Notes: generated by a model from the sequence alone, not told the origin. DNA of 36,930 nt from an uncultured Gammaproteobacteria bacterium (GCA_964645815.1 CAZYCR010000003.1:1-36930); one strand, 5' to 3'. Positions 16,066 to 36,930 are shown, counted from the stretch's first letter. Translations and numbers: made by a program.

Positions 16066-16146
16066 GAAAACAGGCCCTTAATGCAATCCTGAACGAAGTG
16101 AAGGATCTCTCAAATCGGAGTTGCGTCAAGGGTCTGTTTTCTTTTT
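16066..16146 (+). terminator. long-stem terminator-like hairpin in the rpsU 3' region, carrying the dispersed repeat in its loop
   Basis: gaaaacaggccc (16066-16077) pairs with gggtctgttttc (16130-16141) over 12 bp including one G-U. A ttttt run follows. The 52-nt loop contains the inner hairpin ATCCT/AGGAT. Confidence 0.5.
16086..16108 (+). repeat. dispersed 23-nt hairpin repeat, copy 1 (atcctgaacgaagtgaaggatct)
   Basis: Exact reverse-complement match to 26558-26580. Confidence 0.9.
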
Positions 16147-18818: not shown

Positions 18819-18822
18819 ATTT

Positions 18823-19536: not shown

Positions 19537-19539
19537 GTT

Positions 19540-20688
19540 ATGAGCGTAAAAACAGTACAACAAAATATTCCGAGTGGATGGAACGTCAAACTCCTGGGCA
19601 AAGTGATTGTTGAAAAAGATAAATCTATACTGAAAGTCGGTGATGCGGACAATAGCAGTGTCTATCCATTCTTTACTAGTGGTGAAAAAGTTTTAAGTCA
19701 TAGTAAGGCTCTGGTGTCTGGTCGAAATATTTATGTGGCCACAGGCGGTGTAGCCAATATTAAATTTTTTGATGGTGAAGCAAGTTATTCAACAGATACC
19801 TATTGTTTTACTTCAAAAGAAGATACAGAATTTATTTACTATGCCCTCCTCAATAATTTAAGAGATATAAACAAACATTTGTTTTCTGGTAGCGGCTTAA
19901 GGCACTTACAAAAAAAGGACTTCAAAAAGAAGGAAATACTTCTCCCGCCAATTACAGAGCAACAAAAGATCGCAGAGATTCTGAGCTCAGTTGATGACGA
20001 CATTCGTGCGACACAAGATGTTATCGATCAAAATGAGCAAATCAAAAAAGGTTTGATGCAGGATTTGTTTACAAAAGGAATTGGTCATACGAAGTTTAAG
20101 GACAGCGAGCTTGGAAAGATTCCAGAAGAGTGGCAGATGGTTCATCTTGAAGATGTGGCCCATTTTACTAATGGAAAAGGTCACGAAAAACATATTTCAA
20201 AGGGTGGGAAATATATCGTTGTCAACTCAAAATTCATCTCATCTAATGGAAATGTGATTAAATGTTCAGATAAGGCATTTTTACCACTTTCCAAAGAAGA
20301 GGTTGTTATGGTGATGAGCGATGTTCCGAATGGTCAGGCTTTGGCAAAATGCTTCTTTATCGATGAAGACGATACTTACACTTTAAATCAACGAATCTGT
20401 TCATTCCGTTTTAAAACTGGCCTACCACGTTTTTATTATCATTTACTTAATAGAAATGCTTACTTTTTGAAGTTTAATAATGGAACCGGGCAGACTAACT
20501 TGCGGAAACAGCAAGTGCTAGATTGCCCGATTGCGCTTCCCCCAGAAGGCGAACAAAGAGAAATTGTTGATTTTCTTGATGCATTGGAACACAAATTGGT
20601 GTCGTGGCAAGAAAAGAAGATCGTACTAGAAAATCTTAAGGATGGCCTAATGCAAGATTTATTGTCGGGTGAGGTGAGAGTTGAGTAA
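19540..20688 (+). CDS. hsdS: type I restriction-modification specificity subunit HsdS
   Basis: Two target-recognition domains, each followed by a conserved helical spacer: LPPITEQQKIAEILSSVDDDI and LPPEGEQREIVDFLDALEHKL. Confidence 0.88.
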   Translation: MSVKTVQQNIPSGWNVKLLGKVIVEKDKSILKVGDADNSSVYPFFTSGEKVLSHSKALVSGRNIYVATGGVANIKFFDGEASYSTDTYCFTSKEDTEFIYYALLNNLRDINKHLFSGSGLRHLQKKDFKKKEILLPPITEQQKIAEILSSVDDDIRATQDVIDQNEQIKKGLMQDLFTKGIGHTKFKDSELGKIPEEWQMVHLEDVAHFTNGKGHEKHISKGGKYIVVNSKFISSNGNVIKCSDKAFLPLSKEEVVMVMSDVPNGQALAKCFFIDEDDTYTLNQRICSFRFKTGLPRFYYHLLNRNAYFLKFNNGTGQTNLRKQQVLDCPIALPPEGEQREIVDFLDALEHKLVSWQEKKIVLENLKDGLMQDLLSGEVRVE

Positions 20689-20692
20689 GTAT

Positions 20693-21691
20693 ATGGCCAG
20701 AGGCACATACCAGAGAACTAAGTTAGCCAATCGATCGACTCATGCTTTTATTTCTTCGCTTAATGCCTTCAATAATGCAAGTGATGAATACCGAGTTGAA
20801 GCCGCTTTGTTCTTGATGGTCAATGCCGTCGAACTGCTTTCAAAAGCCCTTGTATTAAAACATGGAGGAAAAATTTACGAGAAAGGTACAAAGGAGAGAA
20901 CGATATCTGCAGAAGCGAGTATTTGGCTATTGTTTAATCAGTATCACAAGATTGATGAGCTTGAACATGGAGCTTTGCAACAACTAATCTCATTGAGAAA
21001 CGAGGCATCACACAATATTTTACCGAGTGTCAAGAATGATGTGCTGCACTATTTAATGTTCTCTGCGTTTAAAGTCTACCGTCGACTTATCAATGACAAT
21101 TTTCGTTCTCACAACAGAATTTTTAAAAAAAGCTTCTTGTCTATTTCAACAGATGAAAACACTACTTACGCCGATAGTGTTGAGGGGTTGTTGAGATCAA
21201 GTAAAAAGTCCGAATCCCAAAGACGGCTTCTCTACTTACTGGAAAGAGGTGTGTCGTATAAAGGAGACACATACATTACACAGGATGCTTTTGAGAAAAA
21301 TTTTAGAAAACAAAAGAACAAAAGGTTGATTAACAGAAGTAAATTAGGCAAATTTTTATCCGAGGCAGATCTTCTGAAGGTTGTATTTATTCAGGCACCT
21401 AAAAATCACACCATCAACATTGATATTGCTAAGGGAATAGGTTCTCAGAAAGAAGCCCTTACCGTCTTTACCAGGCGTACTGATATCAATAAAGATTACC
21501 CGTATATCCTGACGACGTTAGCTGAAAAGTTGGGAAAAGGAAGAAATGTAACCTTACAAGCAATTAAGCAGTTGAGCGTCAAAGGTGACAAGGAGCTACA
21601 TCAGGAAGTAAAAACTGGTAAACAAAGTTCCACACATAAATATTCTGATGCCGCCTTCCAGAAATTGAAAAATCATTTCGACAATCTATGA
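20693..21691 (+). CDS. HEPN-motif protein (putative RNase) embedded between hsdS and hsdR
   Basis: Rx4H motif in LISLRNEASHN after an all-helical N-terminal half. The ATG at 20693 is 4 nt after the hsdS stop; the TTG at 20681 is an alternative start. The stop overlaps the hsdR start (ATGA). Confidence 0.7.
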   Translation: MARGTYQRTKLANRSTHAFISSLNAFNNASDEYRVEAALFLMVNAVELLSKALVLKHGGKIYEKGTKERTISAEASIWLLFNQYHKIDELEHGALQQLISLRNEASHNILPSVKNDVLHYLMFSAFKVYRRLINDNFRSHNRIFKKSFLSISTDENTTYADSVEGLLRSSKKSESQRRLLYLLERGVSYKGDTYITQDAFEKNFRKQKNKRLINRSKLGKFLSEADLLKVVFIQAPKNHTINIDIAKGIGSQKEALTVFTRRTDINKDYPYILTTLAEKLGKGRNVTLQAIKQLSVKGDKELHQEVKTGKQSSTHKYSDAAFQKLKNHFDNL

Positions 21692-24606: not shown

Positions 24607-24609
24607 CCT

Positions 24610-25170
24610 ATGAAAAAGGAGGTGCAAATTGAAAATAGTACGCTCCAATACTCGATAAAAAAGAGTAAGAGGGCGAAGCGAATGAGAATCGCAGTTTATT
24701 GCGATTGTTCGATTGTTGTTACATCTCCTCAATCGATTTCAGAAACCCAAATTCAAAAATTTATTCGACTGAAATCGGATTGGATTGCAAAGAAGATTGC
24801 ATTCTTCTCCTCTTTGCAGATACACCCTGATATCGCTATTCAGTCAGAACAACATTACTTACAACATAAAGAGAAGGCGTTGAAGACAATCTCTCAGAGA
24901 GTTCAGAAGCTGAGTGAAAAGTATCAATTTGAACCTAATCAAATTCGAGTAAAAATGTTAAAAACTAAATGGGGTAGCTGTTCTGGGAAGAAGAATCTCA
25001 ATTTCAATTACAAGTTGATTTTTCTTAATCAAGATTTGCAAGATTACGTTATCATCCATGAACTATGTCATTTAAAAGAGTTGAATCATACAAAGAAATT
25101 TTGGGCACACGTTGCTTCATTTATACCTGAATATAAGAAGATAAAAAATAGACTACAAATTTTTAACTAA
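24610..25170 (+). CDS. DUF45/COG1451 (YgjP-like) zinc-dependent hydrolase
   Basis: TKWGSCS and HELCHLKELNH (HExxH plus a downstream His). Starts 3 nt after the hsdR stop. Confidence 0.8.
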   Translation: MKKEVQIENSTLQYSIKKSKRAKRMRIAVYCDCSIVVTSPQSISETQIQKFIRLKSDWIAKKIAFFSSLQIHPDIAIQSEQHYLQHKEKALKTISQRVQKLSEKYQFEPNQIRVKMLKTKWGSCSGKKNLNFNYKLIFLNQDLQDYVIIHELCHLKELNHTKKFWAHVASFIPEYKKIKNRLQIFN

Positions 25171-25171
25171 T

Positions 25172-25918
25172 ATGCCTTTTTATAATCCACACCGAGGAGC
25201 ATCCTTCAACTACGGCGGGAAGCAATGGAAACTTAGCCGGGGGAAGATTGATCTCTTTCTCCGCTGCCCGCGGTGTTTTTATTTGGACAACAAACTCGGC
25301 ACCAAACGACCTACGTGCCCACCGTATAATATTAATACCGCCGTAGACTCGCTCCTCAAACAAGAATTTGATGGCTATCGGGCCCGGGGGATGAAACACC
25401 CTTTGCAGAAAAAATATAAAATCGACGCCATCCCGGCTAAGCATGAGCAAATCGATGATTGGCGCGAGAATTTTAAGGGTGTTCAGTATTTACACCAGCC
25501 AACCGGATTATTGGTTACCGGCGCTATTGATGATTTGTGGCAGAGTAAAAAAGGTGAGTATATTGTGGTCGATTATAAGGCCACGGCCAAGTCTGATCCT
25601 GTAACTGAGCTGAATGATGATTGGCACGAAGGTTACAAACGTCAAATGGAAATTTATCAATGGTTATTGCGTCAAAATGGTCTTAAGGTTTCCAACACCG
25701 GTTATTTTGTTTATTGCACCGGTCGGCCGGACGAAAAAGCTTTTGACGGTAAAGTGGAATTTGACGTGCATTTGATTGCTTACACCGGTGACGACTCATG
25801 GGTCGAAAAGACTCTAGCTCAGATTAAAAAGACCCTGAGTAGCAAAAAAATACCTAAAGCTGCCGCAGATTGTGAGTATTGTCAGTATCGAGCCGCAGCC
25901 GCTCGGCACGAAAAATAA
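25172..25918 (+). CDS. Cas4/RecB-like PD-(D/E)XK nuclease with four terminal cysteines
   Basis: CPRCFY near the N-terminus, GAIDDLW, VVDYKA, QMEIYQ, and C-terminal CEYCQY. Starts 1 nt after the DUF45 stop. Confidence 0.7.
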   Translation: MPFYNPHRGASFNYGGKQWKLSRGKIDLFLRCPRCFYLDNKLGTKRPTCPPYNINTAVDSLLKQEFDGYRARGMKHPLQKKYKIDAIPAKHEQIDDWRENFKGVQYLHQPTGLLVTGAIDDLWQSKKGEYIVVDYKATAKSDPVTELNDDWHEGYKRQMEIYQWLLRQNGLKVSNTGYFVYCTGRPDEKAFDGKVEFDVHLIAYTGDDSWVEKTLAQIKKTLSSKKIPKAAADCEYCQYRAAAARHEK

Positions 25919-26408: not shown

Positions 26409-26860
26409 TAAAAACAGACAATGCATTTCGGCACCGGATGCCTGGAGGCACTTCGTCTTTTAGATTCTCGTATCTGCAATCCTGAGCCTGACGAAGGATC
26501 TTCATGATTTACTTCTGGAGGCACTTCGTCCTCCCTCACGGTTGCAATATGAACAAAAGATCCTTCACTTCGTTCAGGATGGTACGTACTCTGTCGTGTT
26601 TACCATCCCGAGCGAAGCCGAGGGATCTTTTGAATTGATTCACGTCTGGGGTCTTCCAGCCCCAGGCCTCCAGACCCTGGGTTCAGTGATTCCTTGTAGA
26701 AATATCACTTCACCCGTCTCGGCGGTTCGAAGACAAACTATTGTCTTCTCACTTCGCCTCGACTCCTCGCTGAGTACGAGGAAAATATCATTCCACAGCC
26801 GGACTGCAGAAAACTCCCAAACTCCTGTATAATAAGGATACAAAATTCACTGCTTGTCGT
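26409..26860. other. non-coding, hairpin- and repeat-dense region (candidate structured RNA or long 5' UTR), strand undetermined
   Basis: Hairpins: a long imperfect one at 26558-26628, plus 26517-26534, 26646-26665, 26729-26748 and 26764-26782. A 16-nt direct repeat lies at 26442-26457 and 26515-26530. There are four exact CACTTCG heptamers. There is no convincing ORF. Confidence 0.5.
26558..26580 (-). repeat. dispersed 23-nt hairpin repeat, copy 2
   Basis: The reverse complement of agatccttcacttcgttcaggat equals 16086-16108 exactly. Confidence 0.9.
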
Positions 26861-28588
26861 GTGAGAAATATTGAGCGAACCTGGCTTAAAAAGTTTTTAC
26901 GTGGAGCCGTTTTTAGTGCGGTAATTTTTGCGTTGTGGCAAACGCCAACGTTTTTTGTAGAAGCTCAAACCGCTCTTGAGCGAACCGGTGCAGCGGCTAG
27001 TTTTCAAGAAGTTGAATTGGCAACAGTTATCGGTCGAATCATTGCTGTCTTCTTGGGAGTCTTGGGCGTTGTCTTTTTGGGCCTAGTCATCTATGCCGGC
27101 GTTTTGTTCATGACTGCTGCCGGTCGCGATGATCGAGTAGAAAAAGCTAAGAAAGTATTAACCAGCGCGGTCATCGGACTTATTATCACCATGAGCGCTT
27201 ATTCCATTACAGCTTTTGTAGTGCAAAGAATCACTGGCCAAGGTCTTTTTGGCACTAGCGGCGGCGGTGGCACTAGCGGCGGAGTTTCGATTGAACCTTT
27301 CTCCGGCTCTTTGGGCCGAGGAATCCGTGACCACTATCCGGCTCGCAACGCCACTAACGTTGCCCGCAACACCAAAATTTTCGTGACCTTCTCGGAGCAA
27401 ATGAATATTGAATCATTTATCGACGGTTATGACGTTTCTGGTTCACCGCTCGATCTTTCGGACGACACACCAGCTTCTGGTCTCAACGACCGTTTGATCA
27501 AAATTTACCCAACCGCTCAAGGCGAATCGGCCGCTTTAACTGCAACTGATGTCAGCGTGACTTTCACCGATGACTTGAGAACTTTTGTTTTCACTCCACC
27601 AATCCTGGGATCGGCTACGACCAATGTTCAGTACACTGTTGCACTAGATGATCGTCTGGAAAGCGCAACCGGTAATTCTATACTCAATGACGGTGGCTAT
27701 ATTTGGTCTTTCACTGTGGGAACTGTTTTGGATACTGAACCGCCAACTGTCACTCGAGTTACACCGCTCGCTGGCGGTACTTATGATCGTAACATCACAG
27801 TGCAGTTAACTTTTTCCGAAGCGCTTGATCCAACTTCGGCCAGCGGTCGATACAATCCGGCCAATGGCGAAAATTTTGAAAGTATTACTGTAGCCGGAAC
27901 TAGCAGCGGCGCAGTTTCGGGTGAATATTTAATTAGCAATGAATACAAAACAATTACTTTCCAGCCATCGGCAGCCTGCGGCATAAATTCTTGCGGCAAT
28001 ACTTTGTATTGTTTGAGCTCGGCCGACAGTATGACAGTCACTGCTTTTGCTGCCACCAATGATTTGTTCCCGTACAACGGAATTGTTGACGTTAATGGTA
28101 ATGCTTTGGACGGCGACGCCGACGGTCAGGCTGGCGGAAATTATAGTTGGGGCTTTACCACCACTGGCGACGTTCGTTTGAGCGGACCGGAAATTACTTT
28201 GATTACACCTGACATTGAGTCAAGCAACATCAATCTCGATCAGGATGTGATGATTACTTTTGATTCAGAATTAATGAGCTCCACTGTTAGCACGGAAAAT
28301 TTTGTACTGACCTCAAAACCGGAGCATGAGATGTGGTTCCGCACCAGCCAAGAATCAACGGCCGACAGTACTACAGTCACAGTCAAACATGGCGTTTTCT
28401 TGGAATCAACGGCCGACCAGACTTATTTGTACGGCATGAGCGTTGGGGAAGGTGTGCAAGATATTTATCAAAACTGTTTCCGACCGGCCAAAGGTCCGGG
28501 TAAAAATGGAGGTAGTTGTGGTACCAGTGCCAGTGCACCGTTTTGTTGCAATGGCGTGCCGCAATCAACCGAGTGCCAACTTTTTTAA
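26861..28588 (+). CDS. secreted/surface protein with N-terminal VirB2/TrbC-like pilin module, Gly-rich linker and Ig-like domains
   Basis: 575-aa ORF with a GTG start. It has a signal-like N-terminus. Two hydrophobic helices flank MTAAGRDDRVEKAKKVL. A GGGGTSGG linker follows, then beta-rich repeats of the SbsA/Big type and a Cys-rich C-terminus. Confidence 0.8.
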   Translation: MRNIERTWLKKFLRGAVFSAVIFALWQTPTFFVEAQTALERTGAAASFQEVELATVIGRIIAVFLGVLGVVFLGLVIYAGVLFMTAAGRDDRVEKAKKVLTSAVIGLIITMSAYSITAFVVQRITGQGLFGTSGGGGTSGGVSIEPFSGSLGRGIRDHYPARNATNVARNTKIFVTFSEQMNIESFIDGYDVSGSPLDLSDDTPASGLNDRLIKIYPTAQGESAALTATDVSVTFTDDLRTFVFTPPILGSATTNVQYTVALDDRLESATGNSILNDGGYIWSFTVGTVLDTEPPTVTRVTPLAGGTYDRNITVQLTFSEALDPTSASGRYNPANGENFESITVAGTSSGAVSGEYLISNEYKTITFQPSAACGINSCGNTLYCLSSADSMTVTAFAATNDLFPYNGIVDVNGNALDGDADGQAGGNYSWGFTTTGDVRLSGPEITLITPDIESSNINLDQDVMITFDSELMSSTVSTENFVLTSKPEHEMWFRTSQESTADSTTVTVKHGVFLESTADQTYLYGMSVGEGVQDIYQNCFRPAKGPGKNGGSCGTSASAPFCCNGVPQSTECQLF

Positions 28589-28591
28589 AAC

Positions 28592-31500
28592 ATGACTAAG
28601 AAAATTCTCACAATTTCCTTGCTTTTCTTGGCCACACTGACCGTGGGTCTCATTTTGATGCATACCCCAACCTTAGCTCAAGTCGATACCGGGTTGGAGA
28701 CTGTGGGCACTGAAGCTGGTTTGGCTGGTGACAGTCTGGGATTGATTATTGGACGGATTATTCAAGTGATTCTGGGTATTTTAGGTGTTGTTCTTTTGGG
28801 CTTCATGATTTACGGCGGCTATCTCTGGATGACCGCAGCCGGCAGTGACGAAAAAGTGGCTCGGGCCAAAAAAGTTTTAGTTAATGCCACCATTGGTTTG
28901 ATTATCGCTTTAGCTTCCTTTGCTATCACCACTTATGTTATTTCTGCAGTCGGCGGTAATGCCGGCGGCGGAGGTGGCACAGGAGGCGGCGGAGGAGGAG
29001 GTAGTGGTATTGGCTTGGGTCATGGCTCAGTGGCGCTTTTTACGGTCACAGGTTTTCAGCCGGACGGTGAAGTACCAATCAGAAACATTGCTTTACAAAT
29101 AACTTTTAGTAAAACTGTCGATGAGACTACGATAGATGGCGCAGTTCATGTCAGGCGAGCCGACAGTGGGGAAGAGGTCGCTGGAAGTTTGGAGGTTAAT
29201 TATAATCGGGTCACTTTCCGACCAAGTACAGCTTGTCCGGCACCGGACGAGGATCGTTTCTGCTTTGATGAAAACACTACTTATAACGTTTTGGTTGACT
29301 CTTCGATCGAAAGTCAGACAGGTTTGCAACTTAATTGCGCTTCCGGCTGTAGTTCCAGCTTTACCAGTGGCAGCATTGTTGATACGGATAATCCTTCTGT
29401 CGAATTAACTTACCCGCAAAGTGGTGCCAGGATCGCAGCCGGCGCAGTAAGTTTGGTTGAAGCTATGGCCGAGGATGACGCCGGGCTTTCCGGTGTTGAT
29501 TTTCTGAGTGAAGAACAAATCTTTGATTCAGTTTTGGTAACTTCGGAAGAAACCGGATCTCCACTTTCGGCGATAGTCGAAAGTTATTGGGAAACCTCAG
29601 GATTGCCGGAAGACAATTATTATACTTTGCGAGTGACAGCCTTCGACTTGGCCGGTAATACTGATGAAGATTCTTTGCGTGTTAAGATCAACCCAAGTAG
29701 TTGCTCTAATGGTAGGCTTGATGCTGACTTGGGAGAGACCGGCCTTGATTGTGGCGGAAGTTGCGGCGAATGTGACGGTGCTACTTGTGAAATAAATGAC
29801 GCATGCTCAAGCGGACTTTGCTTAACTGGAACTTGTACCACTCTGCCAACCATTTTATCGGTTACTCCGTCTAATGGCGCACCGGGCACCTATGTAACAA
29901 TTTCTGGTACAGATTTTGGCAGCAGTGGTGGCTATGTTGAGTTTACTGCTATCGGCGGCGGAACAGTGGCTGCAACTATTCCATCTTGCAGCAATGGTTG
30001 GAGTGCCGCTGAGGTCGTGGTGGAAGTGCCAAATGAAGCGATTGATGGTCCAATTTCCCTAACTACCAGAAACAATTTATTTGACAGTACTGATAATGAA
30101 TTTGGACCGATCATAAATAATTTTGATGTTAATACCACTTTGCGACCATCAATTTGTCGTTTGTCGCCAACTGCCGGAGTTGCCGGGTCAACACTTAATC
30201 TTTTTGGTAAAAACTTTGGCGGTAGCCAAGGAACTTCGGATATTAGATTTAATAATGATTTGGCAGCAACTTATCCAGCCTGGAGTGATGGTTCAGCGAG
30301 CGCTGTTGTGCCAAATCTAGCAGCAACAAATTACGGCGTGGCCGTGAACGTCGGCGGCGTGCTTTCCAATAGTTTGAATTTTAATCTGGGATCAACTGGT
30401 GAGGGCGGTACAGGTGGCACTGGCGGTACTGGTACCAGCGATCAGCCAATTATTAGTTATTTAAGTCCTGGTGACGGCGGTGTTGGTCAATATGTGACAA
30501 TTGTTGGTTCAGGTTTTGGCGATTTGGTCGGTTCGGTCTTCTTTGAAAATCAGTTGACCGGCGAACTGGCTCAGGGCGCCATTGATTTTCCGGCACTTTG
30601 TTTGGATGATTTTTGGAATAATCAAGAAATTACCGTAATTGTCCCAGTAAATTACACAAATGGTTCAGCTGTTGATTTGGGGGCATATGAAGTTTATGTG
30701 GCTCGCCAAGATGGGGCAGTTTCTCCAAGAGCCAATTTCACTGTAACCAGTGCCGAGCCTTTACCAGGCCTTTGTCGAATTGTTCCAAATCGGGCAGAGA
30801 CTGGAACCTCGGTCACTTTGATTGGTGATGGTTTTGGAAACAATCCAGGATCGATAACTTTTTATAATGAAGCCGGGGCTTTGAATATTGCTTCTTGGCG
30901 AGATGGAGAAGTGGAAGTCAGCGTGCCGGCAGCGGCCAGCTCTGGTCCGGTTCATCTCACTTCTGCAGCCGGTGGAAGATCTAATGAGGTTAATTTTGAG
31001 GTAGGCGCCGCAATAGTTCCTGGTGAAGAAGTAACTGTTGGTGCGGCAGCTTATGCCTGGAGTTTTTCAACCGGTATTTTGCCACGTACACCAGAACTGG
31101 CGATCGCCTGTACTGACACCTTGATCAGCGGTGTACCAAATAGCCTGTTCACTGATGCAGTTTGCGTTAATGCTAATGTTTATGGCGAGTTTAGTGTGCT
31201 CATGCAGAGCGCGGCCTTGGCTTATGGAGAAGCTGTTGTGGTTGAGGAATGTTTAAATGATCGTTGTTCCAATACAACGCCTGTTCCGGGTTCGGCACAA
31301 ATCAGCAGCAGTACCGGAGCGACAACTTTCCGCTGGCAGCCAAGCTCCAGTTACAACGGAGGTCTTTTCAAGACTTCAACAAAATATCAAGTTCGGATTA
31401 CCACTGACGCTACTTCTGTCGCCGGAGTGCCTCTAGCTCAAGAAGTAGTTTGGGATTTCACCACCAGTGAAAGCAGTGACAATTGTACAGTTGAAAAAGT

Positions 31501-34500
31501 ACGTGTTAGCCCAATTAAGGAAACTTTAAATATTCAAGGTGAGACTACTGAATTTGCCGCAGTTGCCAGCACCAATGATTGTCAGGTGCTCGATGCTGAT
31601 GCTTACGCTTGGGATTGGAGTATTGACCCATCGGTTGCATCCATCAACGACGGCACTTGCGAAAATACATCATCGGACGCTTGTGCAACGGCAGCGGCTT
31701 TAGCCGAAGGAGAGACGCCGGTTAGAGCAACCGAGCGTTCTAGTCAAATTTTTGGCGAAGGACTGCTAATTATCGATTATACTGATCCTTATATTATCAA
31801 CCAGGCACCTAATTGTGGTGAAGCCTGCGTTAATGCTGAAGTTGAAGCCAACTTTAATGTACCAATGGATATTGCCTCGGTTGAACGTGCGGGAGCGGCA
31901 ACACTTTATCGTTGTCAAAACGAACTTTGTCTTTCTTTCCCGGAAATGGTTTCCAATTCGGCCCAGTGTGTTTATGGGGAAGGCAGTGTTTGTTTGGGTC
32001 TTAAATTCAGCAACTTACCGACTCTCAAGACTGGAAATTATTATCGAGTCGTGATTTCTGGTGACGTTAAATCAGTTTCCGGTGTGCCACTCACCAGAAC
32101 CAATTATGGCGATGATTATTCTTGGACTTTTAGAGTTCGCGATTCTGCTGAAGCTTGTTCAATTTCACGGATTGATCTCTTACCAAGCGACGTTACTTTG
32201 AAAAATATTGGTGATCGGCAGATCTTTGCGGTGGCTGCCTACGGCGAAGCTGATTCATGCTCAGTCGCCGGTCAAAAATTGAGCAGCAGTAATTACAACT
32301 GGAACTGGGAAGACCCAATTATCGATCGCGCTGGCGTGGCTGAGTGGCTTAAAGTTAATGGCGTCTTGCTTGATTCTTCGATCAGTTCCGGAGTTTCCGG
32401 CTGTACCAGTTCCTGTTTGCCAACCGGCAGTCAACCTTATGGTGGAGTTTGTGGTAATGGAGTTTTGGATGTTGGCGAAGATTGTGACGACAGCAATATT
32501 ACTGACGGCGACGGTTGTTCATCAATTTGTTTGGCCGAAGGCCATTTGCCAGGTTCAATTTGTGGCGACGGCGTGATTGCTAATATCTCCGGTGCCGGAG
32601 AAGAGTGCGACGACGGTAATACAGACGACGGTGATGGTTGTTCGGCTCAGTGTACCAGAGAAGGCAGTGCTTCAGTTGGAGCAACTTGTGGCAATAACGA
32701 TGTGGCTAGAAATGAATTTGGCGCCGGTGAGGATTGCGACGACGGTAATCGCAGTTCAGGCGATGGTTGTTCCTCGGTTTGTCTTAATGAGGGTACACCA
32801 AAGATCGTCAGCATCTTGGCGACTTGTGGCAATAATGTTATTGAACCTCCGTTTGAAAGCTGTGACGACGGTAACTTAGCCAACAACGATGGTTGTTCCT
32901 CTGTTTGCGTTCGTGAAGGTTTAATCGCCGGAGCAACCTGCGGTAACGGTACAGTCGAGAGAAACAGCTTTACCAGTGCTGGTGAAGATTGTGATGGTGG
33001 TGAAGGTTGCGGCCGCGATTGTCGCTGGTTGGGATCCTCGTTTAATTATTCAGAACCATCGGTTTGTGCCGACGGTATTGCCGGAATCGGTGAGTACGAT
33101 CAATGTGAAATTGGAGCTGCCGGAGACGGTCGGCCAGACGGCAGCCAAGTGGCCATTATCAGTGAAGGAGCAGGAGAGTTTGTTGATCCAGATCTTTCCA
33201 AAGCCGAGGCTACTATTAGAGTCTCAACTCCATCCTCATCCTTGAGCGGCCGAGCAACTTTGGCTTTGTCTTGCGTTGCTGAAACTGATGCAGACTGTGA
33301 AGACGGCTATGGTCCGGCTGATAACCGCTGTTGCCTAGCTCGACCAAATCCTGATCTATTCCCGGCTGGAAACGATGTTTGTCGCAATGCCGCTATTTAT
33401 GCCATTTTTGATCAGAGAATGGATCTAAATTCATTCAATGGTAATGCCTATGTTCGACTTGTTGGCGGAAGTTGCCCAAGTTCACATGAAGTTGCTTTAG
33501 GGGACAACGCTTCTTGGTTGGCCAGATTGTGGCAAAAGATTTCAAACTTTGTGGCACCAGAACTTTTAGCTCAATCTGCTGGAGATTGTTTATTGCCACT
33601 CTCAGGATTTTCTCAATTTGAACGTCCAGACGGTACTTTCCAAGTTATCTTTAATTACAGTGTTGCCTTGGAGACCAACAGTGAATATGAAATCGTGCTC
33701 GAGGGCGACCAATTAGGCGATATCGCTGATAATGGTCGGGCTTTGGCAGACGGTATTTTGTCGGCTTCTGGCGTGGCCATGGAAGGCTCGCGAGTTCATC
33801 ATTTTATTACTTCTGATCGTTTGTGTGACTTGTCTAGAGTTGAAGTTTTGGATTCGTTCTCAGAACATCCGGGAGTCTTTAGAACTGCCAATGAACCGCA
33901 TGATTTATTTGCTACAGCTCTTACTAATCACAACGGCAGTTACGAAGAATTACAACCAATTCCTGGCGTATACGAATGGGAGTGGGCTGATTGGCAAGAA
34001 GATACCAATGGACGTTTTGTTACTTTGAGTAATCAAAATAATAATACTGTTACAGCGAGTTCCACCGAAGATTCTGGTCGTTCTCATGTCACGGCTACAG
34101 CTCGTTTAACTACTGACACAATCAATAATTCAATTGACCCAACTTCAGGTTTTGGTCAATCAGTCTCTGGAGACATCAGCTTTACAGCCGTGATTTGTAA
34201 TAATCCATGGCCAGCTTATGGTACTGATTTTCCTTACGAAAATAATGATTTCAATTTCTCTCTATATTATTGTCGCGACAGCGGCGGCCGGGAAACAGAT
34301 GATGACTTGCCGGCTCTTGCTGCACCTGTTGAGTCACCGGCTTCAGGTTCGGGCATTGTTTTGGGCGAATATTTCTTCCGCGTGTTACCAAACTTACCTG
34401 ATCTTGTTCCAACTAACCGTTCCAATGATGCCATTGGTTTGCGTATAGCGGAAAATCCAAATTACTTAAGCCCAACTGATTGGTATTTTGAGAACGGCTT

Positions 34501-36930
34501 TGTTGGCAGTCCACGTGAATTAACAGTTGATGGCTTTGAGGCGATTGAGGTTGGCAGAAGTATCTACGTTGCTGCACCAAATATTGCCGGCAGCCAGATT
34601 TATCCAAATATTTACGTTCTTTCTTATAATGAACTAGCCAGCTCGAGTACTGTTGAAATTTATAATCAGCTGGTTGAAAATTTCAGTCTACTGATTAATA
34701 AAACCGTAAATCTTTGTCGTCGAGCCGATGGCGGTTATACTCATACGGTTTGTTCCTCAGATTGGGACTGTCTTGGTGATGCCGAAGCTGTTGAATGTGG
34801 CGCTGATGGTTTGAAACTTCGTCGTGACATGAAGCGTTTAACTGATCTAACGCATCTGTCCAAGGTCATTTCCACTTACGGCAGCGACAATCGACGATGT
34901 TCCTTAACGACATCACAAGTTTGTACCACGGCTCAGGATTGTCCGGGTACGGAAACTTGTTTGCCAAGCACACCGCAATTATCATCTGGTACGTTCCTGC
35001 GATCCGGTTCAGCCAGCACCTGGAACTCTTGGAATAATGAATTGGCAGGAACTTTGGGCGAAAGCATCCCGGCTGATCCACTCAATGGTTATGCCGGCAG
35101 TTGTGGAGATGGTACAGACTATCCTGGTTTTACTGCTGCAACTTGTACCAATGAAACCAGTGGTCAATATGTTTGCCCGCTTGGTAGTTACACTTATCAT
35201 TACTTTGCTAAAGGTCAGTTTGGTTATGAACTAAACGTTGATTTGGAATACTCTGGTCAAGGTGAATACTGGGCTTTTCCAATCGATAATGACTTGGGCG
35301 ACAGTAAAGTCCTTCGAGTTAACAATCACGCTGCCGGGGAAGACGGATTTTCCGGTGCGCCATTCTGCGATGGAACCATTTACGGCGCATCCAATATTTG
35401 TGGCGACGGTGTAGTCGGTACAGATGAAGCTTGTGAACTGGGTCAGAGAAGCAATGCTCAGCCGACAACTTGTGCCGATGGTTATCCGGGTACAATTTCT
35501 CAGGTTTGCGCTACTGATTGTTCCGGTTTTGTCGATGCTCCAATCGACCAATGTGTGCCAATTTCTTGTGGTAATGGAGTGAGAGAAATCGGCGAAGAAT
35601 GCGATGACGGTTCATTTAATGGTCGTTACGGTTATTGTGGCAATAATTGTTCTTACACCAATGCACTTTATTGTGGCGATGGTTCTCTGGCTGCTGGAGA
35701 AATTTGTGATTGCGGCTCAACAGTTGCTTCTGGTTTAACCTACGGCGGTTTTTCATGCAATAAAGTTAACGGATCTTATAGTACCAACCCGGCTGCCAGC
35801 TGTTCTTGGGATTGCCGCGGGCCGGCTTCTTATTGTGGCGACGGCGTAGTTGATAGTGGCGAGCAGTGCGACGGCACAGTTAACGAGTATGCCGGCAAAC
35901 TATGTGCTGGCTCGATTAGTTTGCGCTTTGGACAGACTTGTGAAAACGATGCGCAATGTCCAACCTTTGACGGAGGAACCTCGGCTTGTGGTTCAAATTT
36001 GGCTAATTATAGCTGGGCTAATGAATGTCCAACGACAACTGTTTGTATTGCCGGTGATCCTCTTCGCATTGGCTACCCATGTCAAACTGACATTGATTGT
36101 GGCGCGACTGGTGTTTGCTCACAAAATCCGGTAGAAACCACGCGTACCATGACTTGTTTGGACGACGGAGCTGCTGGTGAACAATGCAAATGGCAGTCAA
36201 ACACCTGGCGTTCAATTGATTGTAAAGCAGCGACTTCTTGCGGTAATGGTCAATTAGAACCTGGAGAAGATTGTGATGACGGCAACAATGACACCAATGA
36301 CAGTTGTACCAATGAGTGTCGCTTAAATGTTTGTGGCGATGGTTATCTCTATCTTGGTATTGAAGACTGTGATTCTGGTGATGAGAACGGACAACTCTGT
36401 TCTGCTGCCTACAACTCAAGCTGCAGTTATTGTTCATCCAGCTGTAAACTACTGACAACTTCTGGAACTTTCTGTGGTGATAATATTATCAACGGTGGGG
36501 AATATTGCGATGGCAGTTCAGTGCCACTTGGTTTTGGAATCTGTAATGGCGGTGACAATAATGGCGAGATTTGTTCTGCTGACGGGGATTGCCCAGGCTT
36601 TAGTTGTTCATTCCCGGTTTGTGCTAATGACTGTCGAACTTCGTGTCCAACGACTTATAAGTTTGCCAGTATTGAAATGAGGACTAATCAAACAGGTGCG
36701 CCACGAACAACTGCGGTTGAGCTGGAGTCAGCATTATTGGAAAGCCAGAATTTTAATATTGATACAGCAACTCTTTATCTGCCACAATGCAATGCAGCCA
36801 CTGCTTTACGTGGCGATGTAATTTTTGAAAATATTGATTTTTCCAACGCTTACGTAGTTTTTGTCACAGATCTTTCGAGTTCCATGAGTACAATTGTAGG
36901 TAGTGAACAGAGCGGCAACCAGATCACTCT
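28592..36930 (+). CDS. giant surface protein (partial, >2779 aa): pilin-like head, Ig-like domains, 4 IPT/TIG repeats, two arrays of Cys-rich CGxG..CDDGN..DGCS repeats, vWA domain starting at the window edge
   Basis: Hand translation from the ATG at 28592 meets no stop up to base 36930 (2779 codons plus 2 nt). All + strand track ORFs after 28588 lie in another frame (coordinate mod 3 = 0), whereas this ORF is in mod 3 = 2. That fits an open frame that went unreported because it has no stop in the window. Confidence 0.9.
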   Translation, partial: MTKKILTISLLFLATLTVGLILMHTPTLAQVDTGLETVGTEAGLAGDSLGLIIGRIIQVILGILGVVLLGFMIYGGYLWMTAAGSDEKVARAKKVLVNATIGLIIALASFAITTYVISAVGGNAGGGGGTGGGGGGGSGIGLGHGSVALFTVTGFQPDGEVPIRNIALQITFSKTVDETTIDGAVHVRRADSGEEVAGSLEVNYNRVTFRPSTACPAPDEDRFCFDENTTYNVLVDSSIESQTGLQLNCASGCSSSFTSGSIVDTDNPSVELTYPQSGARIAAGAVSLVEAMAEDDAGLSGVDFLSEEQIFDSVLVTSEETGSPLSAIVESYWETSGLPEDNYYTLRVTAFDLAGNTDEDSLRVKINPSSCSNGRLDADLGETGLDCGGSCGECDGATCEINDACSSGLCLTGTCTTLPTILSVTPSNGAPGTYVTISGTDFGSSGGYVEFTAIGGGTVAATIPSCSNGWSAAEVVVEVPNEAIDGPISLTTRNNLFDSTDNEFGPIINNFDVNTTLRPSICRLSPTAGVAGSTLNLFGKNFGGSQGTSDIRFNNDLAATYPAWSDGSASAVVPNLAATNYGVAVNVGGVLSNSLNFNLGSTGEGGTGGTGGTGTSDQPIISYLSPGDGGVGQYVTIVGSGFGDLVGSVFFENQLTGELAQGAIDFPALCLDDFWNNQEITVIVPVNYTNGSAVDLGAYEVYVARQDGAVSPRANFTVTSAEPLPGLCRIVPNRAETGTSVTLIGDGFGNNPGSITFYNEAGALNIASWRDGEVEVSVPAAASSGPVHLTSAAGGRSNEVNFEVGAAIVPGEEVTVGAAAYAWSFSTGILPRTPELAIACTDTLISGVPNSLFTDAVCVNANVYGEFSVLMQSAALAYGEAVVVEECLNDRCSNTTPVPGSAQISSSTGATTFRWQPSSSYNGGLFKTSTKYQVRITTDATSVAGVPLAQEVVWDFTTSESSDNCTVEKVRVSPIKETLNIQGETTEFAAVASTNDCQVLDADAYAWDWSIDPSVASINDGTCENTSSDACATAAALAEGETPVRATERSSQIFGEGLLIIDYTDPYIINQAPNCGEACVNAEVEANFNVPMDIASVERAGAATLYRCQNELCLSFPEMVSNSAQCVYGEGSVCLGLKFSNLPTLKTGNYYRVVISGDVKSVSGVPLTRTNYGDDYSWTFRVRDSAEACSISRIDLLPSDVTLKNIGDRQIFAVAAYGEADSCSVAGQKLSSSNYNWNWEDPIIDRAGVAEWLKVNGVLLDSSISSGVSGCTSSCLPTGSQPYGGVCGNGVLDVGEDCDDSNITDGDGCSSICLAEGHLPGSICGDGVIANISGAGEECDDGNTDDGDGCSAQCTREGSASVGATCGNNDVARNEFGAGEDCDDGNRSSGDGCSSVCLNEGTPKIVSILATCGNNVIEPPFESCDDGNLANNDGCSSVCVREGLIAGATCGNGTVERNSFTSAGEDCDGGEGCGRDCRWLGSSFNYSEPSVCADGIAGIGEYDQCEIGAAGDGRPDGSQVAIISEGAGEFVDPDLSKAEATIRVSTPSSSLSGRATLALSCVAETDADCEDGYGPADNRCCLARPNPDLFPAGNDVCRNAAIYAIFDQRMDLNSFNGNAYVRLVGGSCPSSHEVALGDNASWLARLWQKISNFVAPELLAQSAGDCLLPLSGFSQFERPDGTFQVIFNYSVALETNSEYEIVLEGDQLGDIADNGRALADGILSASGVAMEGSRVHHFITSDRLCDLSRVEVLDSFSEHPGVFRTANEPHDLFATALTNHNGSYEELQPIPGVYEWEWADWQEDTNGRFVTLSNQNNNTVTASSTEDSGRSHVTATARLTTDTINNSIDPTSGFGQSVSGDISFTAVICNNPWPAYGTDFPYENNDFNFSLYYCRDSGGRETDDDLPALAAPVESPASGSGIVLGEYFFRVLPNLPDLVPTNRSNDAIGLRIAENPNYLSPTDWYFENGFVGSPRELTVDGFEAIEVGRSIYVAAPNIAGSQIYPNIYVLSYNELASSSTVEIYNQLVENFSLLINKTVNLCRRADGGYTHTVCSSDWDCLGDAEAVECGADGLKLRRDMKRLTDLTHLSKVISTYGSDNRRCSLTTSQVCTTAQDCPGTETCLPSTPQLSSGTFLRSGSASTWNSWNNELAGTLGESIPADPLNGYAGSCGDGTDYPGFTAATCTNETSGQYVCPLGSYTYHYFAKGQFGYELNVDLEYSGQGEYWAFPIDNDLGDSKVLRVNNHAAGEDGFSGAPFCDGTIYGASNICGDGVVGTDEACELGQRSNAQPTTCADGYPGTISQVCATDCSGFVDAPIDQCVPISCGNGVREIGEECDDGSFNGRYGYCGNNCSYTNALYCGDGSLAAGEICDCGSTVASGLTYGGFSCNKVNGSYSTNPAASCSWDCRGPASYCGDGVVDSGEQCDGTVNEYAGKLCAGSISLRFGQTCENDAQCPTFDGGTSACGSNLANYSWANECPTTTVCIAGDPLRIGYPCQTDIDCGATGVCSQNPVETTRTMTCLDDGAAGEQCKWQSNTWRSIDCKAATSCGNGQLEPGEDCDDGNNDTNDSCTNECRLNVCGDGYLYLGIEDCDSGDENGQLCSAAYNSSCSYCSSSCKLLTTSGTFCGDNIINGGEYCDGSSVPLGFGICNGGDNNGEICSADGDCPGFSCSFPVCANDCRTSCPTTYKFASIEMRTNQTGAPRTTAVELESALLESQNFNIDTATLYLPQCNAATALRGDVIFENIDFSNAYVVFVTDLSSSMSTIVGSEQSGNQIT
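29843..31006 (+). repeat. four tandem IPT/TIG-like domains inside the giant ORF
   Basis: Recurrent openings: ILSVTPSNGAPGTYVTISGTDFG, ICRLSPTAGVAGSTLNLFGKNFG, IISYLSPGDGGVGQYVTIVGSGFG, LCRIVPNRAETGTSVTLIGDGFG. Confidence 0.7.
32450..33110 (+). repeat. array 1 of six Cys-rich repeats (CGNG..GE.CDDGN...DGCS..C)
   Basis: Repeat-initial TGT/TGC codons at 32450, 32561, 32687, 32825, 32939 and 33065, giving periods of 37-46 codons. Example: CGNGVLDVGEDCDDSNITDGDGCSSICLAEG. Confidence 0.85.
35399..36650 (+). repeat. array 2 of more divergent Cys-rich repeats
   Basis: CGDGVVGTDEACE, CGNGVREIGEECDDGSFNGRYGYCGNNC, CGDGSLAAGEICDCG, CGDGVVDSGEQCDG, CGNGQLEPGEDCDDGNNDTNDSCTNEC, CGDGYLYLGIEDCDSG, CGDNIINGGEYCDG. 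Confidence 0.8.

What the first reader, a model, noticed from the sequence alone, without database searches (positions are those of the whole stretch)
26963..28946. Paralogous VirB2/TrbC-like pilin heads on two adjacent large surface proteins
Both proteins open the same way. A signal-like segment is followed by two hydrophobic helices around a short charged loop, and then by a poly-Gly linker (GGGGTSGG in the first, GGNAGGGGGTGGGGGGGSG in the second). By hand alignment, 38 of 64 residues are identical between GRIIAVFLGVLGVVFLGLVIYAGVLFMTAAGRDDRVEKAKKVLTSAVIGLII... and GRIIQVILGILGVVLLGFMIYGGYLWMTAAGSDEKVARAKKVLVNATIGLII....

This layout matches the conjugative-pilin fold. From memory, it is the family annotated as T4SS pilin that is common in CPR genomes, where it usually occurs as small stand-alone proteins.

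Here it acts as the membrane or filament anchor for hundreds to thousands of extracellular residues. That suggests pilus-displayed or envelope-anchored adhesins for attachment to a host cell.
Basis: partly seen in the sequence, partly recalled or inferred. Interest (0 to 1): 0.65.

Follow-up and report, generated by a model that had tools for sequence, protein, structure and literature searches.

The report
Giant surface proteins with conjugative-pilin heads
Two neighbouring genes of an uncultivated ultra-small bacterium (Candidatus Uhrbacteria) attach a small conjugation-type pilin module to very large adhesin-like surface proteins, one about 3,100 residues long, which makes them strong candidates for how these cells hold on to a host.

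Summary

- **The two genes.** P1 (26861-28588, 575 aa) and P2 (28592 to the window end, at least 2,779 aa; complete orthologues about 3,050-3,500 aa) open the same way. Each has a Sec signal peptide, a two-helix hairpin with a basic loop, and a Gly-rich linker.
- **Family.** Both heads pass Pfam PF18895 (T4SS_pilin) above its cut-off. They are 49% identical over 100 aa (E 2e-29).
- **Bodies.** P1 carries three Ig-like domains. P2 carries Ig-like and TIG arrays, Cys-rich acidic repeats and a terminal VWA domain with a MIDAS motif.
- **Topology.** The positive-inside rule puts the bodies outside the cell.
- **Conservation.** The pair is a core operon of Uhrbacteria. At least 292 species genomes encode a P1 relative. 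A second head-bearing ORF follows P1 in 78 of the 80 loci fetched, and the other two end at the contig edge.
- **Context.** The operon sits between housekeeping genes and ftsA/ftsZ. No T4SS gene lies within 10 kb.
- **VirB4.** It was reported absent from 2 of 7 pair-bearing assemblies.

I read these as modular VirB2-like pilins acting as envelope-anchored adhesin fibres. Whether they ever enter a pilus is unresolved. The family is known. I did not find the fusion to giant adhesins in the papers I searched, so I rate it a new variant of a known kind.

The parts
26861..28588 (+). P1 gene, 575 aa: pilin head, Gly linker and three Ig-like domains
   Evidence: ORF. Pfam PF18895 and Big_5 x3. 68 homologues of 517-885 aa, 65 of them carrying precomputed PF18895 plus PF13205 and all 68 carrying PF13205. 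AF2 mean pLDDT 86.
26861..26965 (+). P1 signal peptide, aa 1-35, predicted cleavage VEA|QT
   Evidence: Basic n-region with 5 K+R, a hydrophobic core and an AXA-like site. Helix 7-26 in the model.
27017..27235 (+). P1 pilin head, aa 53-125: helix, basic loop (AAGRDDRVEKAKKVL), helix
   Evidence: PF18895 at aa 53-119, 36 bits when scored alone. Helices 53-84 and 90-125. Signature residues Y78, G80, M84, T85, A86, G88 and G106 are invariant or nearly so in 62 orthologues.
27236..27295 (+). P1 Gly-rich flexible linker, including GGGGTSGG
   Evidence: Sequence read directly. pLDDT 39 for residues 130-140.
27296..28585 (+). P1 extracellular body: three beta-sandwich Ig-like domains and a Cys-rich C-terminal end (CCNG...C..LF)
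   Evidence: Big_5, 1.6e-21, three stretches. pLDDT above 90. Foldseek matches to the Ig-like domains of LdtMt2, S-layer proteins SbsC, SbsB and EA1, cadherin and titin. Eight Cys positions are invariant or nearly invariant.
28592..36930 (+). P2 gene, first 2,779 codons, cut by the window end
   Evidence: No stop codon. Collinear with orthologues at 39-44% identity over about 2,800 aa, and 71.5% to L001. Complete orthologues have reading frames of 3,058-3,450 codons stop to stop. Three were read from a start codon or called as genes: L034 3,056 aa, 3,103 aa on the 617-kb contig, and L085 3,455 aa.
28592..28678 (+). P2 signal peptide, aa 1-29, predicted cleavage TLA|QV
   Evidence: Helix 2-24 in the model.
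28727..28954 (+). P2 pilin head, aa 46-121
   Evidence: PF18895 at aa 46-116, 40.6 bits when scored alone. NCBIfam NF045849 at 38.9 bits, against a cut-off of 40. About 50% identical to stand-alone pilins. Helices 49-82 and 86-121.
28955..29017 (+). P2 poly-Gly linker
   Evidence: Sequence read directly.
29084..29575 (+). P2 Big_5 and Big_7 Ig-like domains
   Evidence: Pfam best stretches at aa 165-258 and 268-328.
29846..31006 (+). P2 array of about four IPT/TIG domains, aa 419-805
   Evidence: PF01833, 5.3e-21, three stretches. The repeat starts were read from the sequence.
32441..33001 (+). P2 Cys-rich acidic repeats, aa about 1284-1470
   Evidence: TIGR02232, 3.4e-39, six stretches. DUF4215.
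35369..36631 (+). P2 second Cys-rich region, aa about 2260-2680
   Evidence: Sequence. P2 holds 128 Cys in total and is strongly acidic.
36851..36928 (+). Start of the P2 terminal VWA domain, with MIDAS D2760-x-S-x-S; the rest lies beyond the window
   Evidence: The window ends in VVFVTDLSSSMS. In orthologue L034, PF00092 VWA scores 7e-17 at aa 2803-2957. DxSxS, T and D motifs are conserved in 13 orthologues.

Best explanation
P1 and P2 are modular pilins. Each has a PF18895 (VirB2-like, 'T4SS pilin') module at the N-terminus with a large adhesin-like module grafted onto its C-terminus.

Proposed sequence of events; everything from export to membrane insertion is inferred from the sequence:
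1. The proteins are exported by Sec and the signal peptide is cut.
2. The two hydrophobic helices insert as a hairpin in the cytoplasmic membrane, with the basic loop facing the cytoplasm and both ends outside.
3. The Gly-rich linker lets the C-terminal stalk pass through the thin envelope.
4. P1 displays three Ig-like domains. P2 displays a stalk of about 3,000 residues (Ig-like, TIG and Cys-rich acidic repeats, the acidic repeats probably binding Ca2+) and ends in a metal-dependent VWA ligand-binding domain.

The two genes are three bases apart with no terminator-like site in the short spacer between them, so they are probably co-transcribed. They are a core operon of Candidatus Uhrbacteria.

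I think they most likely work as envelope-anchored adhesin fibres for contact with a host cell or a surface. The pilin-type hairpin would be the anchor and would probably also mediate association with itself or with other PF18895 pilins. Anchoring as such would not need a T4SS.

What is shown: family membership, architecture and conservation. What is inferred: topology, surface display, adhesion, and any association between heads.
For: - **Family.** PF18895 matches above cut-off on both heads.
- **Retained pilin signature.** The heads keep the signature that is invariant in stand-alone pilins, Y-G-G-x-L-W-M-T-A-x-G ... I-G-L. They are about 50% identical to stand-alone pilins.
- **Topology.** Each has a signal peptide with an AXA-type site and a loop with 4-5 K+R between two hydrophobic helices, so the C-terminus is outside.
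- **Extracellular bodies.** Big_5, Big_7, TIG, Cys-rich repeats and VWA. P2 has 128 Cys and a large acidic excess. P1's model is confident and resembles the Ig-like arrays of surface proteins.
- **Conservation.** A second head-bearing ORF follows P1 in 78 of 80 species-level loci. At least 292 genomes encode a P1 relative. P2 is collinear over about 2,800 aa.
- **Fixed housekeeping context.** Upstream of P1-P2 lie TopA-Mur ligase-DprA-Pth-Der-LytR ... signal peptidase-HisRS-an unannotated 84-aa gene-YqeY. Downstream lie two TSP3-repeat proteins, an unknown protein, YbeY, DagK, FtsA and FtsZ. No T4SS genes appear.
- **VirB4.** Reported absent from 2 of 7 pair-bearing assemblies.
- **Head versus body.** The head is the best conserved part between the paralogues: 49% identity, against at most 30% over 97 aa in the bodies.
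Against: - No experiment exists. Topology comes from the positive-inside rule only.
- A plain single transmembrane helix would do for anchoring. The strict retention of the full pilin signature therefore hints at a pilin-specific activity such as assembly or recognition by a machine.
- Some relatives have a small stand-alone pilin gene between P1 and P2 (L042, L061, L075, L081), which makes the locus look like a pilin array.
- VirB4 is present in 5 of the 7 pair-bearing assemblies checked. The two absences could be gaps in draft genomes.
- The ligand and the host are unknown.
Confidence: 0.6

Rival explanations
1. Pilus-incorporated modular pilins. The heads are pulled out of the membrane by a VirB4-type T4SS encoded elsewhere and polymerise with small PF18895 pilins into a VirB2-like pilus. 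P1 and P2 would be minor or tip subunits that decorate the filament with adhesin modules.
For: - The heads keep the full stand-alone pilin signature.
- The Gly linker would let the bodies project from a filament surface.
- A small pilin lies between P1 and P2 in four relatives.
- P1 and P2 heads of one genome are more alike (46.3%) than heads of different genomes (41.2%), in 61 of 70 genomes, Wilcoxon p 1e-10. Exact shared nucleotide runs reach 37 nt in some genomes.
- VirB4 is present in 5 of 7 pair-bearing assemblies.
- PF18895 arrays are essential in S. epibionticum and lie within its T4SS locus (PMC10633639, PMC12857230).
- T4SS pilin genes are among the most highly expressed genes of unknown function in cultured Patescibacteria (PMC10936435).
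Against: - No T4SS gene lies within 10 kb in any locus.
- VirB4 is reported absent in 2 of 7 pair-bearing assemblies and in 18 of 36 Uhrbacteria assemblies.
- No pilus has been shown for any Patescibacteria T4SS (PMC12857230).
- A 3,000-residue module on every subunit could not pack in a filament; this is my inference.
- The within-genome head similarity may partly reflect base composition, since GC ranges from 0.38 to 0.70 across the loci.
Confidence: 0.2
2. Structural envelope proteins. P1 and P2 would be S-layer-like or wall-spanning scaffolds, possibly linked to division, and not adhesins.
For: - P1's body resembles the Ig-like arrays of the S-layer proteins SbsC, SbsB and EA1.
- The pair is core and syntenic with ftsA/ftsZ.
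- P2 is conserved along its whole length at about 40% identity, rather than being hypervariable as many adhesins are.
Against: - A conserved terminal VWA domain with complete MIDAS residues points to ligand binding.
- Ig-like hits in Foldseek are generic.
- Gene neighbourhood alone is weak evidence for a role in division.
Confidence: 0.1
3. The head is only a generic two-helix membrane hairpin, and its match to a 'pilin' family says nothing about function or ancestry.
For: - Family members give many sub-threshold hits to unrelated membrane families such as DctQ, FixQ and Cyt_bd_oxida_II.
- Foldseek finds nothing specific for the head; the best hit has E 6.9.
- hhalign against true VirB2 gives a probability of only 14.5%.
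Against: - The heads pass PF18895's curated cut-off.
- Specific non-hydrophobic signature residues are invariant.
- One head of the family member P0082 passes Pfam TrbC/VirB2 at 51 bits, 1.5e-13.
- The hhalign score of 24.5 exceeds the reversed control (11.4) and all 40 column shuffles (maximum 16.1), and the alignment is in register.
- Published work finds these genes near virB4 in 1,135 assemblies (PMC12102498).
Confidence: 0.05

Closest known systems
Stand-alone PF18895 'T4SS pilin' proteins of Patescibacteria, such as the essential six-gene pilin array of Southlakia epibionticum (PMC10633639, PMC12102498, PMC12857230)
   Same: - Same Pfam family and the same signature motif.
- Same layout of signal peptide, helix, basic loop and helix.
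- About 50% identity to the P2 head.
- Occurrence as adjacent paralogues.
   Different: - Those proteins are about 120-160 aa with nothing after the second helix. P1 and P2 add about 450 and 3,000 extracellular residues.
- The S. epibionticum array lies inside a T4SS locus. The P1-P2 pair lies among housekeeping genes.
TrbC/VirB2 conjugative pilins (Pfam PF04956; Agrobacterium VirB2 and relatives)
   Same: - Long signal peptide, two hydrophobic helices around a short basic loop, and both ends outside.
- An in-register but weak profile match.
- Some PF18895 members also pass PF04956.
   Different: - P1 and P2 do not match PF04956 themselves.
- There is no adjacent VirB1, VirB3 or VirB4 (compare).
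- A giant C-terminal module is incompatible with the head-to-tail cyclisation known for VirB2 and TrbC. That is established knowledge, not tested here.
- The host is a monoderm.
Modular type IV pilins, such as Streptococcus sanguinis PilB, which has a VWA module (PMC8179133)
   Same: The design principle is the same: a pilin module carries an adhesion module grafted onto its C-terminus, and in both cases that includes a VWA domain with MIDAS.
   Different: - The pilin superfamily and assembly machine are unrelated. Those are type IV pili with a class III signal peptide.
- P1 and P2 lack the G|FTLxE prepilin motif.
- The module in P2 is an order of magnitude larger.
Giant repetitive adhesins with an N-terminal cell anchor, an Ig-like extender and distal ligand-binding domains, such as Marinomonas MpAFP/MpIBP (PMC4083281)
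   Same: - An N-terminal anchor.
- A long acidic Ig-like extender that probably binds Ca2+.
- Ligand-binding domains at the far end.
   Different: - Those are diderm proteins secreted by T1SS and held in the outer membrane.
- P2 has no RTX Pfam hit, carries a Sec signal peptide, and has a pilin-type hairpin anchor.
T4SS-associated adhesins of Gram-positive conjugation systems, such as PrgB
   Same: They are surface adhesins that stand in for a pilus in monoderm T4SSs. PMC12102498 reports that no PrgB-like adhesin was found in Patescibacteria, which leaves that role open.
   Different: - PrgB is sortase-anchored through LPXTG and encoded in the T4SS operon.
- P1 and the P2 orthologues have no LPXTG and are not linked to T4SS genes.

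Membership tests
Pfam PF18895 T4SS_pilin (VirB2-like pilins of Patescibacteria) | Match to the family HMM above the curated gathering score | tested here: met
   As full proteins, P1 scores 32.2 and P2 34.6 bits. As heads alone they score 36.0 and 40.6 bits. The cut-off is 26.6 bits.
Pfam PF18895 T4SS_pilin (VirB2-like pilins of Patescibacteria) | Signal peptide followed by two hydrophobic helices around a short basic loop | tested here: met
   Hydropathy and charge analysis. AF2 helices.
Pfam PF18895 T4SS_pilin (VirB2-like pilins of Patescibacteria) | Conserved signature YGG(Y/F)LWMTAxG ... IGL | tested here: met
   The same columns are invariant in stand-alone pilins and in 62 P1 orthologues.
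Pfam PF18895 T4SS_pilin (VirB2-like pilins of Patescibacteria) | Small stand-alone protein of about 120-160 aa, the typical architecture | tested here: not met
   P1 is 575 aa and P2 at least 2,779 aa. The top-ranked family members listed are mostly stand-alone proteins of about 120-180 aa. The longer ones checked are tandem multi-head proteins.
Pfam PF18895 T4SS_pilin (VirB2-like pilins of Patescibacteria) | Linkage to virB4 or other T4SS genes (frequent, not universal: 1,135 of 1,948 assemblies in PMC12102498) | tested here: not met
   No T4SS family appears in the window or within 10 kb in relatives. The closest stand-alone arrays are also unlinked.
Pfam PF18895 T4SS_pilin (VirB2-like pilins of Patescibacteria) | Polymerises into an extracellular pilus | not testable with these tools
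   This has not been shown for any member (PMC12857230).
TrbC/VirB2 conjugative pilins (PF04956) | Match to the PF04956 HMM | tested here: not met
   P1 and P2 give no hit at E <= 1. Transitive evidence only: 27 of 87 family members give sub-threshold hits, the best at 1.1e-6, and one head of P0082 scores 51.2 bits, 1.5e-13.
TrbC/VirB2 conjugative pilins (PF04956) | Profile-profile homology to bona fide VirB2 | tested here: inconclusive
   hhalign of A5 against seven MPF_T VirB2 proteins: probability 14.5%, E 0.0019, score 24.5, in register. The reversed control scores 11.4. The best of 40 column shuffles scores 16.1.
TrbC/VirB2 conjugative pilins (PF04956) | Structural match to solved VirB2, TraA or CedA1 pilins | tested here: inconclusive
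   Foldseek of the head model finds nothing with E below 6.9. A profile search of PDB sequences finds nothing. A two-helix hairpin is too simple a fold for this test to discriminate.
TrbC/VirB2 conjugative pilins (PF04956) | Encoded next to VirB1, VirB3 and VirB4 | tested here: not met
   Compare the true virB2 loci with the P1-P2 context.
Type IV pilins (type IV pili and type II secretion; class III signal peptide) | Short basic leader ending in G, followed by F/M-T-L-x-E and a single N-terminal hydrophobic helix | tested here: not met
   The N-termini read MRNIERTWLKKFLRGAVF... and MTKKILTISLLF.... Neither has a prepilin peptidase motif, and each has two transmembrane helices after a Sec-type signal peptide.
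Sortase-anchored pilins and adhesins | C-terminal LPXTG sorting signal | tested here: not met
   P1 ends ...STECQLF. The P2 orthologue ends ...VRLNYCAP.
VWA-tipped adhesins (a functional class, not a single family) | VWA domain with complete MIDAS residues at the end far from the membrane | tested here: met
   PF00092, 7e-17, in the full-length orthologue. DxSxS, T and D are conserved. The window contains the start of the domain, DLSSS.

The most novel reading that the evidence does not exclude
The PF18895 heads of P1 and P2 really are filament subunits. On this reading Uhrbacteria, which are monoderm, would build a VirB2-type lipid-protein pilus or a short stub whose subunits, or a subset of them, carry giant adhesin modules. 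These would be the first modular conjugative-type pilins, and in some genomes they might assemble without a recognisable VirB4. The appended domains would make such filaments easy to recognise by cryo-ET. That would make the open question of whether Patescibacteria T4SS pilins form pili directly testable.
Probability: 0.2. Interest if true: 0.85.

Novelty: new variant of a known kind. Interest (0 to 1): 0.6.

Why it matters
Patescibacteria depend on physical attachment to host cells. For their unusual T4SS, a published survey found no PrgB-like adhesin (PMC12102498). Whether their VirB2-like pilins form pili is an open question (PMC12857230).

A lineage-wide conserved operon in which this pilin module carries Ig-like stalks and a VWA tip does three things:
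- It gives concrete candidate attachment proteins for Uhrbacteria.
- It extends the 'modular pilin' idea from type IV pili to conjugative-type pilins.
- It offers a natural label, the huge appended domains, for locating PF18895 proteins on cells.

It also shows that PF18895 proteins can be kept in genomes and loci that have no linked T4SS genes. That bears on what the family does in general.

Tried and rejected
- **Exact look-up of P1 in the contig index.** Not on record.
- **Head-only word-index search.** It gave only 10 hits. The exhaustive profile search (66,659 cluster representatives at E <= 0.001) and the alignment search (1,335 hits) list only the top 150 and 120. These are small or multi-head proteins, so I could not make a census of fused architectures.
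- **Foldseek of the head and a PDB sequence-profile search.** Neither was informative.
- **Foldseek of P1.** The top hits are L,D-transpeptidases, but only through their two N-terminal Ig-like domains (for example 4hu2), with TM-scores of about 0.15. I reject a transpeptidase reading.
- **First C-terminal alignment, A3.** It was too divergent for the metagenome scan, so I replaced it with A4.
- **Sequencing runs.** Only four sediment-metagenome DNA runs hold the locus and no RNA run was listed, so there is no expression evidence.
- **Promoter and terminator scan.** Nothing above the shuffled expectation, and no terminator-like site in the short P1-P2 spacer.
- **Other readings.** Type IV pilin and sortase-pilin readings are rejected on their motifs. 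A gene-calling artefact is rejected because the head and body form one open frame in about 80 species.
- **Recent gene conversion in this window.** Not seen; the longest nucleotide run shared by the two heads is 10 nt.

Full report
**1. What is in the sequence**

P1 is the ORF at 26861-28588 (+), 575 aa with a GTG start. P2 begins at ATG 28592, three bases after the P1 stop, and stays open for 2,779 codons to the window end.

Counting from GRII, the two heads share 38 identical residues in 64. Both Gly linkers are there. BLASTP of the two N-termini gives 49% identity over 100 aa, E 2e-29.

The bodies are only distantly related. The best match between them is 30% over 97 aa in a Big_5 domain, E 2e-5. 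The head is therefore the module the two proteins share.

**2. Family of the head**

- Both heads match Pfam PF18895 (T4SS_pilin) above the gathering score of 26.6 bits. Full proteins score 32.2 and 34.6 bits. Heads alone score 36.0 and 40.6 bits.
- NCBIfam NF045849 (Mbov_0395 family pilin-like conjugal transfer protein) matches just below its cut-off of 40 bits: P2 38.9 and P1 28.5.
- The closest relatives of the P2 head are stand-alone proteins of 122-149 aa, about 50% identical.
- An exhaustive profile search finds 66,659 cluster representatives at E <= 0.001. A second search lists mostly proteins of about 130-150 aa that sources name 'pilin'.
- The columns invariant in stand-alone pilins (Y74, G76, M80, A82, G84, I101 and G102 in P2 numbering) are also invariant or nearly so in 62 P1 orthologues and in the P1 and P2 head consensus sequences.

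**3. Is PF18895 related to true TrbC/VirB2?**

P1 and P2 do not hit PF04956 themselves. The evidence for a relationship is as follows.
- 27 of 87 stand-alone members give sub-threshold PF04956 hits, the best at 1.1e-6. Many unrelated membrane families also appear in that scan.
- I fetched seven annotated MPF_T VirB2 genes from plasmids. hhalign against the head alignment gives probability 14.5%, E 0.0019 and score 24.5, in register. The reversed control scores 11.4, and the best of 40 column shuffles scores 16.1.
- One head of an eight-head family member, P0082, passes PF04956 at 51.2 bits, 1.5e-13.
- Foldseek of the head model and a PDB profile search found nothing useful.

I conclude that the relationship is likely and transitive. 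It is not demonstrated for P1 and P2 directly.

**4. Topology and structure**

- Each protein has a Sec-type signal peptide, with predicted cleavage at VEA|Q in P1 and TLA|Q in P2.
- An acidic segment follows, then helix 1, a loop with 4-5 K+R, helix 2, and a Gly-rich linker.
- By the positive-inside rule the loop is cytoplasmic and the C-terminal body is outside. This is the same topology as VirB2.
- AF2 gives the hairpin in both proteins.
- For P1 the model has mean pLDDT 86, a disordered linker, and three beta-sandwich domains with pLDDT above 90. These domains resemble the Ig-like arrays of LdtMt2 domains A and B, S-layer proteins, cadherin and titin.

**5. Architecture of P2**

In order, P2 has the head, a poly-Gly linker, Big_5, Big_7, about four TIG domains, more Ig-like domains, six Cys-rich acidic repeats (TIGR02232, 3.4e-39), about 700 aa with no annotation, and a second Cys-rich region.

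The window ends at VVFVTDLSSSMS. In a full-length orthologue of 3,056 aa (L034), this is the start of a VWA domain (PF00092, 7e-17), which is followed by about 100 more residues. The MIDAS residues are conserved in 13 orthologues. P2 has 128 Cys, and 351 D+E against 125 K+R. All of this fits an extracellular fibre that probably binds Ca2+.

**6. Distribution and context**

- P1 has 68 homologues. All carry precomputed PF13205, 65 also carry PF18895, and they are 517-885 aa long (most about 555-690). The few that carry a source name are labelled Patescibacteria or Parcubacteria.
- A scan of species-representative genomes found at least 292 relatives. The best 80 loci are largely Candidatus Uhrbacteria, Parcubacteria or Patescibacteria MAGs. 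About half of the 80 record titles read 'uncultured Gammaproteobacteria', and a few name other taxa. I take these to be placeholder or wrong labels, but I did not check them.
- In 78 of those 80 loci a second head-bearing ORF directly follows P1. Where the sequence allows, it is 3,050-3,500 codons long. The other two loci end at the contig edge. Four loci have an extra small pilin ORF between the two genes.
- P2 orthologues are collinear at 39-44% identity.
- The neighbourhood is conserved. Upstream of P1-P2 lie TopA-Mur ligase-DprA-Pth-Der-LytR ... signal peptidase-HisRS-an unannotated 84-aa gene-YqeY. In L001 the gene before YqeY carries a faint Ribosomal_S21 hit. Downstream lie two TSP3-repeat membrane proteins, an unknown protein of about 321 aa, YbeY, DagK, FtsA, FtsZ, NrdR and pyruvate kinase.
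- No T4SS family appears in the window or in these flanks.
- The organism comes from sediment metagenomes.

**7. Link to a T4SS**

Table S1 of PMC12102498 lists VirB4 as present in 5 of the 7 assemblies that I could match to pair-bearing loci, and as absent in 2. In the part of the table I read, VirB4 is present in 18 of 36 Uhrbacteria assemblies. That is visibly less often than in the neighbouring classes.

These are draft MAGs, so an absence is not proof. Still, the pair looks more universal in the lineage than VirB4 does. The closest stand-alone pilins sit in arrays of 7-10 genes that also lack VirB4 within 10 kb.

The literature treats a Patescibacteria T4SS pilus as a possibility only (PMC12857230, PMC10633639). 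It reports that no PrgB-like adhesin was found (PMC12102498). T4SS pilin genes are highly expressed in cultured parasitic Patescibacteria (PMC10936435). None of the papers I searched describes pilin heads fused to giant proteins.

**8. Head co-variation**

- P1 and P2 heads from the same genome are 46.3% identical. Heads from different genomes are 41.2% identical. The same-genome value is higher in 61 of 70 genomes (Wilcoxon p 1e-10).
- The same-genome value is about equal to the identity between orthologous heads, 45-46.5%.
- Some genomes share exact nucleotide runs of up to 37 nt between the two heads. The maximum between genomes is 21 nt, and in this window it is only 10 nt.
- This suggests occasional gene conversion or co-adaptation. 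The loci span GC 0.38-0.70, so composition bias may explain part of it.

**9. Interpretation**

The evidence fits modular VirB2-like pilins that display adhesin-like stalks outside the cell. P2 would carry the ligand-binding VWA tip.

- *For simple envelope anchoring:* the lack of T4SS linkage, the patchy VirB4, and the sheer size of the modules.
- *Keeping the pilus model alive:* the strict retention of the pilin signature, the array-like variants of the locus, and the head co-variation.

I put 0.6 on envelope-anchored adhesin fibres and 0.2 on true pilus incorporation. The rest goes to a structural, non-adhesive role or a generic membrane hairpin.

**10. Novelty**

The family and its abundance in Patescibacteria are known, and annotation pipelines already tag these proteins. 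I did not find three things in the literature I could search: the conserved fusion to giant VWA-tipped proteins, its status as a core operon of Uhrbacteria, and its separation from T4SS genes. I rate it a new variant of a known kind.

Noticed in passing
window 17118-25918: A type I restriction-modification island. It holds HsdM with an N-terminal MerR-type HTH, an unknown membrane protein, HsdS, a DUF3644 protein, HsdR, a YgjP-like metallopeptidase and a PD-(D/E)XK/Cas4-like nuclease. It lies within the stretch between HisRS and YqeY. In a syntenic 617-kb contig only an unannotated 84-aa gene separates HisRS from YqeY, so this looks like an accessory insertion.
   Followed up: partly
window 26554-26632, also 16086-16108 and 26442/26515: A very stable 79-nt hairpin lies in the 452-nt spacer upstream of P1 (RNA MFE -45.4 kcal/mol, z -8.0). 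It is not conserved in the closest relative, L001, where only the last 70 nt before the P1 start align. Its 23-nt core, AGATCCTTCACTTCGTTCAGGAT, recurs on the other strand at 16086-16108 inside another strong hairpin. A 16-nt direct repeat lies at 26442 and 26515. There is no Rfam match. It may be a small repeat or MITE-like element.
   Followed up: partly
related proteins P0082, P0080 and others: Many PF18895 family members carry 2-8 tandem pilin heads in one ORF. P0082 is 820 aa with eight heads, and P0080 is 555 aa with six. They would be polytopic or polyprotein-like. One head of P0082 passes Pfam TrbC/VirB2.
   Followed up: partly
related protein P0125 (718 aa): The module order is the reverse of P1 and P2: a Cys-rich extracellular module comes before the pilin head, and this arrangement occurs twice in one ORF. 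That fits both ends of the hairpin being outside the cell.
   Followed up: no
L103, L104, L105: The closest stand-alone pilins lie in arrays of 7-10 tandem PF18895 genes with no VirB4 within 10 kb. In L105 the array sits next to Pth-Der-LytR, a housekeeping block that is also in this window at 9724-13200.
   Followed up: no
L082-L095, downstream of P2 (for example L088 11621-14125): Three conserved co-directional genes follow P2 in relatives. Two are membrane proteins with bacterial TSP3 Ca-binding repeats, and one is an unknown protein of about 321 aa. After them come YbeY-DagK-FtsA-FtsZ. They may belong functionally with P1 and P2.
   Followed up: partly
L041, L018, L058, L066: In a few relatives P1 or P2 is split or shortened. 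In L041, for example, the head is divided across two ORFs. These could be frameshifts, assembly errors or real decay.
   Followed up: no
record titles of L002-L081: About half of these loci carry the record title 'uncultured Gammaproteobacteria', and a few are titled Kapaibacterium or Methylomirabilis. They share the P1-P2 locus found in MAGs titled Uhrbacteria or Patescibacteria. I take the labels to be placeholder or wrong taxonomy in the public records. I did not check this.
   Followed up: no
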